Assembly (NCBI GenBank): GCA_965112155.1
Contig: OZ218108.1
Direction: 5' to 3' (one strand)
DNA: 64,000 nt
Source of the DNA: Podarcis liolepis
Lineage: Eukaryota
Of the stretch, positions 37,779 to 49,299 are shown in pieces. The position numbers and the translations under genes were made by a program. The notes under the pieces were generated by a model. It made no database searches. It was not told the origin of the DNA and worked only from the letters and a program-made list of their open reading frames with translations. Within the stretch, counting starts at the first letter, position 1; each line of letters opens with the position of its first letter.

Positions 37779-37825
<47 letters not shown>

Positions 37826-37936
37826 GGTTTTGGTGTCTTCGGGTGTCTTCCCGTGTAAGAGTTGGGGTGTCTAGGCGGGAAGACACCCGAAGACACCAAA
37901 ACCTGCATTCCTGTACCCGTGAAAATCTACGAAAGC

Positions 37937-37967
<31 letters not shown>

Positions 37968-38115
37968 TTCGTAGATTTTCACGGGTACAGGAATGCAGGT
38001 TTTGGTGTCCTCGGGTGTCTTCCCGTGTAAAAGTTGGGGTGTCTAGGCGACGTTTCGACGAGGTCTCACTCGTCATCTTCAGGCTGGTGCTTTCGGCTTC
38101 TTGTTACTATATATA
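37779..38115 (-). mobile_element. Penelope-like element termini (direct and inverted copies) embedded in (TA)n
   Basis: 37821-37877 repeats ~37993-38048, and 37876-37936 is an inverted copy of ~37963-38023. (TA)n at 37779-37821 and 37937-37962. Confidence 0.75.
38047..38085 (-). ncRNA. Minimal hammerhead ribozyme motif (Penelope type)
   Basis: Minus strand CUGAAGA-U-[GACGAG ugagac CUCGUC]-GAAA-CG-UC: intact core boxes, 6-bp stem II and palindromic ACGU stem III. Stem I is weak. Confidence 0.6.
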
Positions 38116-38699
38116 CGCTAACCCCACCCGCTTTCATTTAAACACATTTGAAGACTTCTTAAATGGTTTAGAGTAGTATATCAACAGCCCTTTCCCCAGT
38201 TTTTAGTAAACAGCTATTTGTCATATATAATCTAGAAGAGCATATAGCATGCAATCCTATGGGATTTTGGAATGGGATGGGTGGGCATTGGACAGCTGTT
38301 CTCACCGACGTGCTTCAAAGCCATTACTTTAACAAGTGACTTGGCCAGTTCTTGAGCTGGCATCATGAAAAATGGACATGCAGATTTGGTATAAGTGTTC
38401 TAGGGTGTGTGCAAACAGTCTGGAATCCTGCACCAATCACGGACATGTGATTAACCGGCATGTAAACTAGCACAGGATTACAGTCAAGGAAAATTAAACT
38501 TCAGTACACTCTGTTAAATTAACATTTCATATACTCTCCCCCCCCCCTTTTGCTGCATAGATAGCATGTGAAATTAGATCTTATTGGAACGACAATACAA
38601 AATGAGCTCAGTTTCCAATAACTGAAGCATTTTCAGCATTGGGATAAAAAAAAGTATTAAGAGTTAGGAATGTTAACATCAAAGTGATCAAGCAACTAT

Positions 38700-39017
38700 G
38701 TGCAGAAATTAACCCTTTTATTATATTGTATATTGTAGTAGTAAAGTTTGTTGGAAGTGCATGAATAAAAAGTTAGTGAAATTACAGGAGGAACAATCTA
38801 TATAGCAATAATAGGTGCATTCACTGTGCATCTGAAAGGAAAAAAGAGAGAGAGAGTTTTCACTCATTTTGGCCTAAAACTTTGTGTTCAGGTTTCCAGA
38901 ATTCTGACATCAGAACCCAGATAACACTGATTAGAACCATAAGGCTTTACAATAAAAGCTAAAATATTGACCATATGATGGCAAAAAGTCTTTATTTTGT
39001 GGTTATATTATTCTCTT
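38700..39017 (-). other. KCNN2: KCNN2 3' UTR (approximate end)
   Basis: TE-free AU-rich stretch after the stop codon, with AATAAA on the minus strand at 38717-38722. Cleavage site inferred ~15-25 nt downstream. Confidence 0.7.
38717..38722 (-). promoter_or_regulatory. Candidate polyadenylation signal AATAAA for KCNN2
   Basis: Plus-strand tttatt about 300 nt after the stop codon. Confidence 0.65.
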
Positions 39018-39305
39018 CTAGCTACTCTCTGATGAGGTGGGTGGTGCTGTGGAGGATGACCTCCTTCTCCGAGACAAGGACCTCGATCGTTCTGCACTGT
39101 AGGTCACATGCTTATCATAGTTTTGTATCTGAGCTTCAAGGAAATCCCTTTGTTGTTGGCTGATTGTTTGGCTAATCAGTCCGGGGAGAGCTTGAATGCT
39201 ACCAATTAATGTTTCCAATTTTGTTTCCAAAGTAACAATCCTCTTCTCAAAGTCTTCGCTTCTTTCGTTTAAGTCAGAAATCATATCATACATGATGTTT
39301 TGAGT
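39018..39305 (-). CDS. KCNN2: KCNN2 last coding exon ([31 protein letters not shown]...[17 protein letters not shown])
   Basis: Acceptor ctctttcag, 288 nt including TAG. Coiled-coil followed by the SK2-specific tail [17 protein letters not shown]. Confidence 0.98.
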
Positions 39306-40305
39306 CTGAAAGAGAAAGGGAAAGGGAGACGCGTTTGAGCAAGCAAGGTTGTTCCGCAGCAATTCAAACACTCATTGCTTAGAAACAGAAAAATAGCAAC
39401 AGAAACTGTGACTTCATAAACCAGCAGCTTCACAAACAACTAGCACGAACCAGCTTCAGAAAGTGTTTTTATTCCAAGCTTTATTGCACAGGTGCAATTC
39501 AGCTGGAGCTTGTGATCCCTTAGTGGCGCACTTTTGAGATTTCAAGCAAACAATGAGGTGGGTTGGAAAACCCTTCAGAAATCCGGAGATGCAGAAATGT
39601 GACTCAGTTCAACAAATACTCTTTGTAGCAGAAGCTGAAAAGCTTCTCTATCCACAAATGGGTTCTGTTAGACCAGTTATATGCTTTCAATTTCCCTCAA
39701 CATTTACAGTAAAGAGAGTTTCATCTTTCTAAGGAGCACTGCGCACATTATGTAGTGGCAAATGTGCTTCGCGCAATGTGTGTCAATCCAGTGTCAAGCT
39801 GAGGCATATCCCAGGTCCCTGAGATGCTTAAATCAGGAGATATGTGGCTGAAAATGTGCATAGCCTCTCCACTGCATAGGCAGAGCATTTTAGTTGCAAA
39901 CCATACAACTTTAATGTGTAAAGTGGCCCTGAGACTCCACTCCATTTTGGCAATTTGGATGGGAACAAGGAAGGCAGCATTCAAAAGCCACTTATAAAAT
40001 CTAGTCCCATTTATTTGTACACTCTCTTCTGTTCCTTGTCACCTGCTCAAAGAGCATCTCCTGTCCCAAGGCCATGTGAGTAGTTTCCCACAGCTAGACT
40101 GAGCTTTTGCTTTCCTCAAAGAAGCTAAACCATTTGTGAATGTTGACTTGTCCCCTATGATAACAGAAGGAAGTTCACTGGAATAGGCTTATAGAGCTTG
40201 AGTTGGCTTTTTACCTTAAACCTTAGCAAAACGATGAATGTCAGTATACAAAAGCAAAATGCCAGTACAGTATACAAAAGCAGAAGCCGGTGTTGTTACA
40301 CTGAC

Positions 40306-40375
40306 CTTTGCCAAGTCCACCAAAGTGTTTGCCTGATCGTTCAATTTCCTCTGTTCCATTTTAACACTTCTTAAT
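40306..40375 (-). CDS. KCNN2: KCNN2 penultimate coding exon ([23 protein letters not shown])
   Basis: 70 nt = 1 nt + 23 codons, acceptor tttag, donor GTCAGT. Phase fits both neighbouring exons. Confidence 0.97.
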
Positions 40376-42058
40376 CTAAAAGATTGAAAATCCAAGTCAG
40401 ATAACAATTTTTTTTGCCAGCTCCTCAAACTTGAATACAGCATGCATCTAAACAGATAACTGCATGGACAATGTCTTGAATACTTTGTGTACAGTCATAA
40501 CTGGTTATGTGTCTGGTACAATGAAAAAAAAAGCATGCTTCCTTAACACCGCAAAAAAGAAAGAAGAGAGCAAGAAAATGTGATGTCCCCGAGACTACTA
40601 ATTGCCATGGTTAACGCTGAATTCAAAGTGGGAGGTAAGGATTTATTCATAGTGTATGAAAGAAAGCCAAAACATTCCTTAAAGCTCCAGTATCCTGGCA
40701 AGTAGGCATAGGAAGTAATGAACGACAATTCAATCTCCTTATTATTGCCTGAGCAATCATTCGGCTTCTTCCATATGCCTACATGATTAGATACAGGTAT
40801 AAGCCCTCTTCAGTCTGAAATGGATTAGGTTAGGAGGTGTTTGAACCTGATGAAAATACAGTGATAAGTGAGTTCCTTGTTAATTTTTAAAAGCTTTTAT
40901 CTGACCAGCAGCTAAATAAAGAGCATCATTGTTAATATATTAGTTTCACAGTCCTCCGTGTTGCTGACCTGGAATACTTTTAATTGTTTTCAATGTGCAC
41001 AACAGTTTTCCTTGTTAATTTATTACTTTCACAGTCCTCAATGTCTCTGACTTGGAATACTTTTGTACATATGTGCATAGCAATTTTCCTAGTAGGTTTG
41101 GTTGGCCAGTTTATCTGTCCGTGATTAAACCAGAACACTATGAAGTATTGTATCTGTATAAAAGAGCCTCATGGTGCCCAAGTAATTCCATTCATGTTAA
41201 TCAGCTGAGCAGGGTAAGAAAGAGAAAAACAAGATGTATTATTCTGAACTGTAGTATGAAAATGTGTGTTGGTTTAAGGGTATATGGCCAGTGACTGTTA
41301 AGGGTATATGGCCAAAAGACTGTTAATCTTTTCCCCCTCTCCAAATATATGAGAACAGAAAAGTTTTAAATCTGTAGTACTATCCATGTAAAGTCTTGAT
41401 GCAAATTGTGAATCGGCTATATTGGTGTAAGTGGCTTCCTTCCTCTTCTTCTTTTCTTAAGGGTTATGTGCTTCAAGGAATAAAACAGTCCAATGCAAAC
41501 TTCTCTATTTATACCAAAGCACACACCCACACCAAGAGCTCCATAATAGCTTTCCCATTCATTTCAAGGGAAGAGGCAGCTCTCCATGGTTTTTCTTTTG
41601 TACAGTTAAATCTGTTTTGCTGAACTAAATGTAGAGGCCTTACAGGCTGGGGTTGCTCTCTGTGTATTTTGGACATGGATACTGCCCCCCAGGGATGTAG
41701 GCTTGTCTCCTTTATAAAGGCAGTCTATCATCATCAAGTTACAAAGGCAATGAAGGACTTTGTGTGTCTAAGCCAGCAGGGTGTTGTGTGGTCAACTAAG
41801 TGTGTGAGAACGTTATTCAGTTCACAACATGCCCATGATCTCATTCAAGAAATGAAGCTACCCTGAATTTAGGCATTAATCTCATGTGGTTCCTCTTTCC
41901 AGGTCATTGTCCTAAACCTCATTAATAATTGGAATCCGTTTATTTATTTAATTTTTTGTGTTTGTCCTGTATCAGCGCCATTGTACCCATTGTCTTATTC
42001 ACCACTGATAACTCGTGAATTTATTCTCACAGTTTATTTTAAAAGATAAAATAAACTG

Positions 42059-42392: not shown

Positions 42393-43763
42393 ATTTTAAA
42401 AGAAACTAAAGGTGGTTTCTTCACAATCCCAGAATCCAGTTGTTTCAGGATTCCCTCTTAAAGCCCACCCCTTCAGCACTGTGCATTCAATTTGATGGGG
42501 TGAATGAGAATGAATGGGCTTACAGCTGCAGTCACACAAGTTCAGCATTGTTGTGGGAGATATGAGGTGCACTCAAGCTCACCTTTTCAAGAGGAGGAAT
42601 AATGTATGTCCAGAAACACATAAAATTATTAAGTGATACTGTGACCCAGTTCTCTTAGCCAAACCATGACTAAGTGTAAATGAGCTGTCCTGTTGCTGTT
42701 CCACTACCCAGAGCTAAGCCATGGTTTGGCTTAGCATTATGCCTGATTCTGGGCTCATGGTTTTGCTCAATCACACAAACTATGATTTGTAGCCAAGGTT
42801 TAGATTTGGCTTATCATTTGTCAGTGCCGGATTTAGGACAGTGTGGGCGGTTCCCCTGCACAAGTTGCCAAGCCATGGGGATTAATAATAATAATAGTAA
42901 TAATAATAATTCCTATATTTATACAGGTACCTATTGAGAAGATTGATTTAAAAAAGGAACTGTACCAAAAGGAATTATTGTGAAAATAAGAAATATTTTT
43001 TGGGGGGTGCCAAATCTTGTCCTTGCTCAGGGGACCATATTACCAAAGTTTGCCCTTGCATTTCTAGTTTGTCTTGGAAGCAAACCTTGGGCCTAGCTTT
43101 AGATGTACTGCTAAGCCAATCAATGGCATAATGCTTGCTAGCATGGCAGCAGCAAGAGTGGGGAGGGGTGAAGTGCCAGTGATTTTTCCTCTAAGGACAC
43201 ACATGTTCACTCATTCATGCTTAGCCATGGCTTGGCTTACTGTTATGTGTAAAGAGGGTCTATAAGGGACAACGCTGAAAGAAATCAAACAAGAGTGCTG
43301 GTCTGTATAAGCTTTTGAAAGTATATTTTAGGTCATCAGTTATCTTTGGAAGAGGGAAAGCCAATTAGCAACATTTTAGGTTGAGCTTTCTATCCTCCTT
43401 TCCCTCCCTATATGAACATTTCGAGAAATATGGTAAATAAATGGTATAATTTTTATGCTGATTATTTACCTCTCTTGCAAATGTATGTTGATAAAGAGAG
43501 ATTTGCATCTTCAAGATGTGTATATCAGCCTTGGTTGTGACTTAGGTGGAGCAAACCTTTTTATAAAGTGATCATTTCTTAGCTGCGACAGTCAGATTAA
43601 AAATGATACTAGCCAGATCTTTCTCTGAAAATTAAGAAATATTGATACTCTGATTCCTTCCTTCCGAACTTCACTTATCACAGAAGAAATTCATGACTTT
43701 GGATTGCAGTTCCACAGTAGCAACCAGACTATTGAAATTCACAAATAAAGTATCCATTTGTTG

Positions 43764-43769
43764 CATGCA
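43764..43769 (-). promoter_or_regulatory. Candidate RBFOX site (UGCAUG) downstream of the ARK microexon
   Basis: Plus-strand catgca = minus-strand TGCATG, ~50 nt after the microexon donor. Confidence 0.5.
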
Positions 43770-43818
43770 GACAGTGGTAAATTCTGCAAATTTGAAAGGA
43801 ACAGCTCACACAACTTAC

Positions 43819-43827
43819 TTCCGAGCT
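43819..43827 (-). CDS. KCNN2: KCNN2 alternative 9-nt microexon inserting Ala-Arg-Lys (SK2-ARK / SK2-b type isoform)
   Basis: Minus strand reads ...aaaatag|AGCTCGGAA|gtaagt. Phase-2 splicing gives CA|A GCT CGG AA|A TTA = Q-A-R-K-L, the position and residues of the known ARK insertion in vertebrate SK2. Confidence 0.9.
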
Positions 43828-46800
43828 CTATTTTCATTGTTGAAATAAAAAGACAAAACAAAAGAAAAGAAACTGTAAAATTGACTAAAACAAATTAACA
43901 CAAGGGATGGTCTTCAGGTGAGCGCAATGTGCTCTGTTATGGAGCTTGTAGTTCATACATTTTCTCCATAGAACTCTCTGGGCCAGCAATTAACAACTTA
44001 AATGCAGGACAGCTTTATACTCTCAGTTTCTATACCACATTTCACCATGTTCTGAAAGTAAGCAGCGACGTTTCATACGTTGTGGTGCAAGCAGACATTA
44101 GCTGCGTTCACACATCACATTAAACCATGCTTAATTTTTAACTATGGCTTAATGCGAACAAGCAGCATGCTGGTGGAAGTCCCTGCTTAACTCCTCCCCT
44201 GCTCTTGGGTGTGCTATATTTGGGGGAATAAAAAGTCGAGTCTTGGCTAGTCATATTATCCAAACCTAGGCTTGTGGTTTGTTTCTCCCAAACAAACCAT
44301 GAGCAGTAAGCCAATAACAAACTTTGGCTACCACTTGCGGTGTGTTTAGAGCCACAAACCTTGACTCGACACATATTCTGAATTCAGACACGTGTGTTGA
44401 GCCAAGGTTTGTGGCTTGTTTCTCCTGGCAGAGCGTGGCCAAGAGAAGGGGAGAAATGACAGATGGACCTTTGAGCACTGTGCACTAGAATGCTGCTTGT
44501 TTATGTTAAACATTTAACGTCACATGTTATTCTGGCCGGAGGGATATCAGTGGCACCTAAATACCTCAGCCCCCTTCCCACATGCCATCCATACATGGGA
44601 AGAATTGATAGCTGAAATATTACCAGGATTCTCAAAAGTTAAGAGACTTAGTATTGGTACATTTTATTTCCATCTTTCCTCCCAACATCAAGTGTTGAGT
44701 AGGCTAGAATTAACCTTTAAAGGGGGTCATTAAGGGGAGTTAAAGGAAAACATATGAATATGTGAATGAAGACTATCACCATGAATCAAAAAGGAGAACT
44801 ACACAGTTCAGCTAGAAATAGAAAATCAAACTTATCATTCTGAATGTTAGCATCCAACAGGATATGACTGGTTCCATTCCCCTATTTTGCTAGAATACAA
44901 TTTAACCCCCTTTGTTTGACTTGGGAGGTCAAATGACGCAGGACAAATGAAAATTCAGAAGTAAAACAGAAACCTGACTCTGCATAACAAGGAAAGGTAG
45001 CCACTATGGGAATTACTTCATATAGTTTCTTACTCAATAGTAGGTGATAAACAAATATTTGCAGTTCTTTTTGAAACTAAAGGGATAAAATTGCATCACT
45101 TCCTTTGAGAACAAAGCTCTAGCACATCAATTGGCAAATCCACACATATTTTTGAAAGTCTGAATACTTCTAGCAAGGGACACATAGAAAGTAAGGTCAG
45201 AAGACAAAGCTAAATCACATATTAAATTAAAATGAAGACAAGCACCTGGTAGATAATAGCTACCCTGCCCCATGCTTATTAGAAGCCATATTAATGTGAA
45301 AAAGGACTATTCCATGAAGACTGATGTGATGCCAGATCACAGTAGGGCAGGGTGGGAAACCTGTGGCGTTCTAGGAGCTTTTGGAATCTAATTCTCATCA
45401 GCCACAGCAAGCATGGCCAATGGTCAAAGGGTATGGGAATTGTAGTACATAAGCTCCCTATCCCTGTTGCAGAGGTTGCAGTCCAATCCTGAACATGTAC
45501 ACTCAGAAGTAAGAATCCCACTAAATCACAATATTGTAATACCTGGTTTCAGCTCATTTTGTAATTCACTATCTCAGGAACCCACCCACACGCCCCCCCC
45601 CCCTTTTTGGTAGAATCAGCTTTTCTATAGACAGCAGCATTTAACCTCACATCTTTGCTAAACTGAACTAATACTCATTGTGTACATTTTATTTTATAAC
45701 TTAAGCATAGTATGTAACCATTAATGAGTTAGCCCTTAATGAGTTAGCCCTTTTCAGATCCCTCCTCTGAAGCAGAAAATGAAATAACATTACTGCCATT
45801 TAATGCGTTCAAATCAACAGCGAAAGAAGAGAAGCACGGTTAATTTATGAAACTTATTTCCTCCTCACTTTTGGTGTAATGGGTGACTACAGACTCTATA
45901 AAATGAAATTCACGACCCTTGGGCTCTGTACACAGACCTCTGTGCAGGGAACAACCAGAGATTCCACGTCTTGTGTTAATATCAGGTGTGGAAAATAAGA
46001 AAGTAGGAAGAAAAACGAATTGCTCACAATGAGCCTTGTTTGGACATGATACTAAACCATGGTTGAATGAGCTACAGTGAACCTTGGGACTGTTATCCCT
46101 CTTTCTCTTTCTCTAAGCTTTCACTTCTAGCTGTTTGTCATGTTGGAATTCAGATGATACAAACTGTTAATCTTAACCATGGTTTGTTGAAACAAGCCAA
46201 CTTCAAACCACAGTTCACAAAGTTCGCTTGTTTTAACTAACCATGGTTAAGATTGACCACAGTTTGGGGTTAATATAGAATGAAAGCAGAGATTTTTTAA
46301 TATACTCCCTGCATCTGTGCTGGAGTGGAGAGCACATAAACCAGATGCTTGCTGCAGTTCATAATGCTAAGCCATATTTATTTTGCAACTTCTTGGAACT
46401 GGCTCTGAAGTCTTTTTCTTGTTATTATAGTATTGGGTCTGTCAAGATGATCTAACTTTACTGATTCCCCACTGTAGAATGATTAAAAGCAATATACACC
46501 ATGTGTATTTCAACTCAGATTCTGAGATTCTGATCTACACTTCTGAGAAAGGACCTCTTTCACGGAAGTGGACCTCTGCTCCCATTTTCATTACACTATA
46601 TCTCTACTGCTAGTTCACCAAGCTCCATACTCTTTGGCCATTTCCTCCTCCCAATAACTCTCTATGTGCTGCAGAGGAAGGGTGTGAAGAAGAGAAACCT
46701 GCAGCAATTAATATCTGCCACTAGTTTTATGTAGCCCAATTTGTGGCGAGCTCTTCCTGCTCTAACATAACAGTAACTGAGCACTCTCCAAAGTCAAGTA

Positions 46801-47765: not shown

Positions 47766-47945
<180 letters not shown>

Positions 47946-49059: not shown

Positions 49060-49299
<240 letters not shown>

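What the first reader, a model, noticed from the sequence alone, without database searches (positions are those of the whole stretch)
43819..43827. Hidden 9-nt ARK microexon in the SK2 calmodulin-binding domain
Seen: ag|AGCTCGGAA|gtaagt in the middle of the 7.4-kb intron between the IHQ and LRSV exons. It is frame-neutral and gives IHQ-ARK-LRSV. Known: an ARK-insertion isoform of SK2 is described in rat (SK2-b) and chicken (SK2-ARK) and changes CaM binding and Ca2+ sensitivity. Inference: the switch is conserved in squamates, and gene predictors are likely to miss it.
Basis: partly seen in the sequence, partly recalled or inferred. Interest (0 to 1): 0.75.

Follow-up and report, generated by a model that had tools for sequence, protein, structure and literature searches.

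The report
Known SK2 channel microexon, lizard copy
A nine-letter optional exon in a potassium channel gene (KCNN2/SK2), likely from a lizard, is the same one already known from mouse, chicken and human, where it adds three residues that lower the channel's calcium sensitivity; it likely does the same here, so it is ordinary.

Summary
Confirmed and already known. The minus strand reads tag|AGCTCGGAA|gtaagt at 43827-43819, within a 7,391-nt intron between KCNN2 exons 47767-47894 and 40306-40375; inclusion keeps the frame and gives IHQ-ARK-LRSV. Chance expectation is about 0.003. The nine bases equal those in a published mouse SK2-ARK primer, the peptide matches PDB 3SJQ, a human table lists a 9-nt cassette before a 70-nt exon in KCNN2 and KCNN1, and a bird/crocodile-type ortholog keeps a 232-nt island at 87% identity while the nearby intron does not align. 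ARK (SK2) or AQK (SK1) is annotated from cartilaginous fish to mammals, including a gecko SK2, so conservation in squamates is not new and RNA-guided annotation does catch it. Splicing in this species was not tested. Published effect: Ca2+ half-activation 0.48 to 0.61 uM and lower surface levels. One side inference: the insert would put Arg at HB-helix position 467, as in SK4, which predicts weaker response to CyPPA/rimtuzalcap.

The parts
43819..43827 (-). 9-nt cassette microexon AGCTCGGAA, phase 2 on both sides, adds Ala-Arg-Lys after IHQ
   Evidence: same nine bases in the mouse SK2-ARK primer and in L001
43828..43830 (-). 3' splice site TAG of the microexon
   Evidence: kept in L001
43842..43872 (-). 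U-rich polypyrimidine tract inside a 43-nt AG-free zone before the acceptor
   Evidence: L001 has the same tract and a 46-nt AG-free zone
43813..43818 (-). consensus 5' splice site GTAAGT; read-through would give AAG TAA (QARK-stop)
43764..43769 (-). TGCATG, 50 nt into the downstream intron; RBFOX-type element (motif meaning recalled, binding untested)
   Evidence: kept in L001
43666..43893 (-). conserved intronic island around the microexon
   Evidence: 86.6% over 232 nt to L001, E 2e-73; 98% at 43800-43849 falling to about 50% (alignment background) beyond 43550 and 44050
47767..47894 (-). KCNN2 exon, 128 nt, HA and start of HB helix ([13 protein letters not shown]...KFLQAIH)
40306..40375 (-). 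KCNN2 exon, 70 nt ([23 protein letters not shown])
49147..49257 (-). KCNN2 exon, 111 nt, end of S6 to MMDTQLTKR
38700..39305 (-). KCNN2 last exon: coding 39305-39021, stop 39020-39018, 3' UTR with AATAAA at 38722-38717 (3' end approximate)

Best explanation
This is the nine-base ARK exon of the SK2 potassium channel gene KCNN2, with intact splice sites and the same sequence as in mouse, and it is likely spliced in or out here as in other vertebrates, where inclusion adds Ala-Arg-Lys to the calmodulin-binding helix and lowers calcium sensitivity. Shown here: sequence, frame, orthology, conservation of the flanks. Taken from papers on chicken, rat and mouse: cassette splicing that rises with maturation of hair cells and forebrain, a right-shifted and steeper Ca2+ curve, more apo-calmodulin binding, lower surface levels. 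Inferred: (a) inclusion is helped by the long U-rich tract, the consensus donor and probably RBFOX on the downstream TGCATG rather than by a classic SRRM4 element, since no TGC lies within 80 nt upstream of the acceptor; (b) in the full channel the three residues shift the register of the HB helix, so that Arg464 is kept and Arg replaces Lys at position 467, the residue that salt-bridges the calmodulin C-lobe.
For: Sequence and frame; chance 0.003. Mouse primer holds CATCA+AGCTCGGAA+A (PMC4048344 section 19). Rat 87-aa construct P0007 with IHQARKLRSVK equals PDB 3SJQ chain C, while 1QX7, 1KKD and 1G4Y show a 3-residue gap there. Mouse retina RNA-seq shows both isoforms of a 9-nt Kcnn2 exon in a long conserved stretch (PMC3664805 section 23). 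Human table: KCNN2 9-nt ORF-preserving cassette before a 70-nt exon, KCNN1 9-nt cassette between 128-nt and 70-nt exons, the same sizes as here (PMC13078869 supplement 5). Ortholog L001 keeps acceptor, exon, donor, tract and TGCATG, with no alignable intron on either side. Among 221 fetched proteins 47 have ARK, 49 AQK, 2 GQK, 80 no insert, 2 ARK followed by something else, 41 end or diverge there (the second search used an ARK query, so these are not frequencies). Function: KD 0.48 vs 0.61 uM, Hill 4.9 vs 10.1, surface level 29%, 23% to 37% of chick cochlear clones. K467-CaM E83/E87 salt bridges in full-length SK2 (PMC12804778 passages); register count.
Against: No transcript of this species was examined, so inclusion, tissue and level are unknown here. 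Only one non-window genomic ortholog was obtained (1 of 2 loci; the other is a chance match). The RBFOX link rests on one conserved hexamer; searches for KCNN2 with Rbfox or SRRM4 returned 3 and 7 listings whose titles do not address this exon. The calmodulin rearrangement in 3SJQ comes from an isolated peptide crystallised at acid pH and may not reflect the full channel. SK1 with AQK was reported to have SK2-like Ca2+ sensitivity, so a three-residue register shift alone does not explain the ARK effect. The AlphaFold model keeps a helix through ARK but also misses the known HB/HC break (pTM 0.37), so it carries little weight.
Confidence: 0.93

Rival explanations
1. The exon is constitutive or nearly so in this lineage, so it is no switch.
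For: The insertion is described as constitutive in trout SK2 (PMC4048344); donor and tract are strong.
Against: 7 of 8 squamate SK2 representatives fetched lack ARK and 1 has it; both forms occur in chicken and mouse.
Confidence: 0.03
2. The exon is a silent relic here: present in the DNA but no longer spliced.
For: No RNA of this species was examined.
Against: Splice sites and exon are unchanged against a bird/crocodile-type ortholog, 49 of 50 identical around the exon, against about 50% background; a gecko model includes it (P0102).
Confidence: 0.02
3. The site mainly serves as a truncating exon: reading past the donor, or using GTGAGC nine bases further on, gives QARK-stop and a channel without the coiled-coil tail (or a decayed mRNA).
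For: Read-through translates QARK*; a shark model ends in QARK (P0060); an 18-nt candidate shares the acceptor.
Against: The second donor is ATGAGC in L001, so it is not conserved; the stop is a by-product of any GTAAGT donor in this phase; 1 of 49 ARK-bearing proteins ends there.
Confidence: 0.02
4. Chance motif, or conservation owed to a non-coding RNA or fold at this place.
For: Short AG...GT candidates are common (12 in this intron).
Against: Expectation 0.003; Rfam gives one sub-threshold match off the exon (24 bits vs cut-off 60, E 0.46); folding z = +0.96; no long frame on either strand (longest 74 codons stop to stop).
Confidence: 0.003

Closest known systems
SK2-ARK (chicken, mouse) / SK2-b or KCa2.2b (rat), KCNN2 9-nt cassette exon; PDB 3SJQ
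   Same: Same gene, same position after IHQ, same three residues, same nine bases as the mouse primer, same 70-nt downstream exon as human.
   Different: Only species and intron lengths (3,939/3,443 nt here; 3,513/2,703 by the human coordinates; 2,035 downstream in L001). Splicing and function are not measured in this species.
SK1 (KCNN1) AQK exon
   Same: 9-nt cassette between 128-nt and 70-nt exons; same position in the helix; present from cartilaginous fish to mammals, including a lizard. Points to an exon older than the KCNN1/KCNN2 split (inference).
   Different: Gln for Arg in the middle; last exon of the window matches SK2, not SK1; AQK is reported not to shift Ca2+ sensitivity.
Neural microexons of the SRRM4 programme (recalled class)
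   Same: Under 27 nt, multiple of three, conserved flanks, long pyrimidine tract, rises with neuronal maturation.
   Different: No TGC close upstream of the acceptor (nearest at -99 here, -80 in L001); a conserved downstream TGCATG suggests RBFOX instead. Not tested.

Membership tests
KCNN2 ARK microexon (SK2-ARK / SK2-b) | Host gene is KCNN2, not KCNN1 or KCNN3 | tested here: met
   Four exons match SK2 at 96-100%; last exon identical to four lizard SK2 proteins; SK1 tails differ
KCNN2 ARK microexon (SK2-ARK / SK2-b) | 9-nt exon with AG/GT ends between the IHQ and LRSV exons, frame kept, encoding ARK | tested here: met
KCNN2 ARK microexon (SK2-ARK / SK2-b) | Exon sequence and flanks conserved with other vertebrates | tested here: met
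   Identical to mouse primer bases; 86.6% over 232 nt to L001
KCNN2 ARK microexon (SK2-ARK / SK2-b) | Both inclusion and skipping occur in transcripts of this species | not tested
   No reads were laid; shown only for chicken, mouse and human in papers
KCNN2 ARK microexon (SK2-ARK / SK2-b) | Inclusion lowers Ca2+ sensitivity and alters calmodulin binding | not testable with these tools
   Published for chicken and rat; the calmodulin-binding region here is identical in sequence
SRRM4-dependent neural microexons | UGC motif a few bases upstream of the 3' splice site (recalled) | tested here: not met
   Nearest upstream TGC at -99 (window) and -80 (L001)
SRRM4-dependent neural microexons | Inclusion drops on SRRM3/4 loss | not testable with these tools
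   No such data seen in 7 listings
RBFOX-enhanced cassette exons | Conserved (T)GCATG in the proximal downstream intron (recalled) | tested here: met
   43769-43764 and the same place in L001
RBFOX-enhanced cassette exons | RBFOX binding and loss of inclusion on RBFOX knockdown | not testable with these tools
   No such data seen in 3 listings

The most novel reading that the evidence does not exclude
The microexon is a built-in subtype switch: by shifting the HB helix three residues it puts Arg at position 467, as in SK4 (R355) and in AQK-bearing SK1, so SK2-ARK channels grip the calmodulin C-lobe like SK4 and respond poorly to the SK2-selective activators CyPPA and rimtuzalcap; since ARK rises with age in cortex and hippocampus, an RBFOX-driven splice choice would set drug response in adult brain. 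Not found in the held literature, but the most relevant paper was not held and, as I recall, reports that deleting AQK makes SK1 CyPPA-sensitive, so part of this may be in print. It concerns all vertebrate SK2, not this window in particular.
Probability: 0.35. Interest if true: 0.4.

Novelty: already known. Interest (0 to 1): 0.13.

Why it matters
Little beyond annotation: gene models for this genome should carry the ARK isoform. It adds one more species to an exon already characterised by electrophysiology, crystal structure and RNA-seq, and already annotated in a gecko. The comparison does show that the exon is invariant at the base level between this genome, a bird/crocodile-type ortholog and mouse, and that its flanks hold a conserved candidate RBFOX site. 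The only idea of wider use is the testable prediction that SK2-ARK differs in sensitivity to SK2-selective activators.

Tried and rejected
Whole genome: none is held for this window. Expression: the run search on the last exon and UTR listed 24 runs, 20 holding the stretch, no RNA holder listed on record; no reads were laid on the locus (one search gave no result), so there is no evidence either way on splicing here. Cluster members of the squamate SK2 proteins could not be looked up, so how many squamate annotations hold ARK is open. L002 is a chance 18-mer match: 54% G+C, no blastn or tblastn match to KCNN2; dropped. Non-coding RNA, fold and hidden ORF explanations rejected. Second donor GTGAGC rejected as unconserved. 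AlphaFold of a tortoise ARK isoform (P0014, 31-sequence alignment) was uninformative on register. Papers not held: PMC3372094 (3SJQ structure) and PMC8799485 (CyPPA and HA/HB helices). OLego supplements: 3 files searched, no Kcnn hits, file 1 not searchable, so the mouse coordinates were not seen. Literature search KCNN2+lizard+splicing gave 0 papers. Two look-ups of earlier scan findings returned nothing. PMC7940285 and PMC8209339 passages added nothing new.

Full report
Observation. On the minus strand the window reads ...ATGAAAATAG|AGCTCGGAA|GTAAGTTG..., the nine bases lying at 43827-43819. The upstream exon 47767-47894 (128 nt) ends in CAC CA and the downstream exon 40306-40375 (70 nt) begins A TTA AGA. 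Skipping gives IHQLRSVK, inclusion IHQARKLRSVK; the intron is 7,391 nt, split 3,939/9/3,443. The expected number of AG-9mer-GT sites coding QARK in this phase is 0.0033 per intron, shuffles give 0.004, and the window has exactly one on either strand.

The gene. tblastn with six squamate SK2 proteins places four exons in the window: 49147-49257, 47767-47894, 40306-40375 and the last exon from 39305; the earlier exons lie outside. The last-exon peptide is identical to 4 of 72 equal-length comparators, all lizards, and one residue away from most birds and a crocodile. The gene is KCNN2 and the source is probably a squamate; that last point rests on one residue.

Orthology. The mouse SK2-ARK qPCR primer in PMC4048344 (sections 18, 19, 11 part 1, 4 part 2, outline and passages read) contains the same nine bases between CATCA and A. 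The rat construct P0007 with ARK is identical to PDB 3SJQ chain C, and the other three alignments shown have a three-residue gap at this place. PMC3664805 (section 23 and passages) uses a 9-nt Kcnn2 cassette as its example microexon, both isoforms abundant in mouse retina, in a long conserved stretch, absent from RefSeq at the time; that it is this exon is inferred from gene and size. Supplement 5 of PMC13078869 lists a human KCNN2 9-nt ORF-preserving cassette before a 70-nt exon and a KCNN1 9-nt cassette between 128-nt and 70-nt exons. An 18-base scan of metagenome contigs gave 2 loci: L002 is a chance match; L001 is a KCNN2 piece whose last exon equals 14 of 72 comparators (12 birds, 1 crocodile, 1 unnamed). 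L001 aligns at 86.6% over 232 nt around the microexon, 49 of 50 at its centre, with no blastn match in the adjoining intron parts tested.

Spread. Of 221 proteins fetched in two searches, 47 carry ARK, 49 AQK, 2 GQK, 80 no insert, 2 ARK followed by something else and 41 end or diverge at the junction; the second query held ARK, so these are not frequencies. ARK goes with SK2-type tails in skate, teleosts, frogs, a caecilian, tortoise, ducks, vole and the gecko Sphaerodactylus; AQK with SK1-type tails, including Sceloporus. Among 8 squamate SK2 representatives 1 has ARK. So squamate conservation is already on record, and the exon likely predates the KCNN1/KCNN2 duplication (inference from equal exon sizes and position).

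How it likely works. Splicing: a U-rich tract in a 43-nt AG-free zone, a TAG acceptor and a consensus donor define the exon; a TGCATG 50 nt downstream is conserved in L001, and no TGC lies near the acceptor. From recalled motif rules this favours RBFOX enhancement over SRRM4 control; it is untested and two searches showed no paper on it (listings only). Protein: in chicken SK2 the insert shifts half-activation from 0.48 to 0.61 uM Ca2+, steepens the curve, raises apo-calmodulin binding to 142%, lowers surface level to 29% and raises association with alpha9/10 receptors; inclusion rises from 23% to 37% in the cochlea and about fourfold in mouse forebrain. Rat SK2-b also has lower Ca2+ sensitivity (PMC6048120 passage). 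In the peptide crystal all four EF hands are loaded and calmodulin changes shape (PMC3691446, PMC9803350 passages), but those papers and PMC12804778 (passages) caution that peptide crystals differ from the full channel. In full-length SK2, K467 of the HB helix bridges calmodulin E83/E87, and K467 versus SK4 R355 decides CyPPA and rimtuzalcap selectivity. Counting from the N-terminal side, ARK keeps Arg at 464 and puts Arg at 467; AQK gives Gln464 and Arg467. I therefore infer a register shift in HB as the mechanism. Against a simple version of this, AQK is reported not to change Ca2+ sensitivity, and the AlphaFold model is too crude to test register.

Rivals. Constitutive inclusion, a silent relic, a truncating exon (QARK-stop, seen in one shark model; second donor not conserved) and a chance or ncRNA explanation are each unlikely. 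One OLego supplement and two key papers could not be seen and may bear on the mouse coordinates and on the drug prediction.

Verdict. A real, conserved, already characterised microexon; ordinary as a finding (interest 0.13). The boldest reading left, a splice-set change in activator sensitivity, has about one chance in three of being true and not yet in print, and is not specific to this genome.

Noticed in passing
window 40300-40919 (minus strand); L001 3131-3741: A second conserved block: 77% identity over 631 nt, most of it intron just upstream of the 70-nt exon, unusually long for a constitutive exon's flank. Could hold splicing elements or another small exon.
   Followed up: no
window 38671-39316; L001 5620-6279: Last exon and about 350 nt of 3' UTR are 88.6% identical to L001 up to the AATAAA at 38722-38717, so the UTR is conserved.
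   Followed up: no
window 43804-43809 (minus strand): GTGAGC nine bases past the donor would give an 18-nt exon ending in a stop (QARK*); it is ATGAGC in L001. A shark SK2 model (P0060) ends in QARK.
   Followed up: partly
window 43241-43259 (minus strand): A 19-nt YAG...GTAAGC candidate with a 70% pyrimidine tract; frame-shifting and outside the aligned island, probably chance.
   Followed up: no
human table: Human KCNN1 has a second 9-nt cassette further upstream (between 419-nt and 142-nt exons); the matching KCNN2 region lies outside this window.
   Followed up: no
P0121: A Toxocara SK protein model holds the calmodulin-binding segment twice, probably mutually exclusive exons joined by the annotation.
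   Followed up: no
window 37779-38070: Two (AT)n tracts flanked by inverted and repeated segments downstream of the gene, resembling a decayed mobile element.
   Followed up: no
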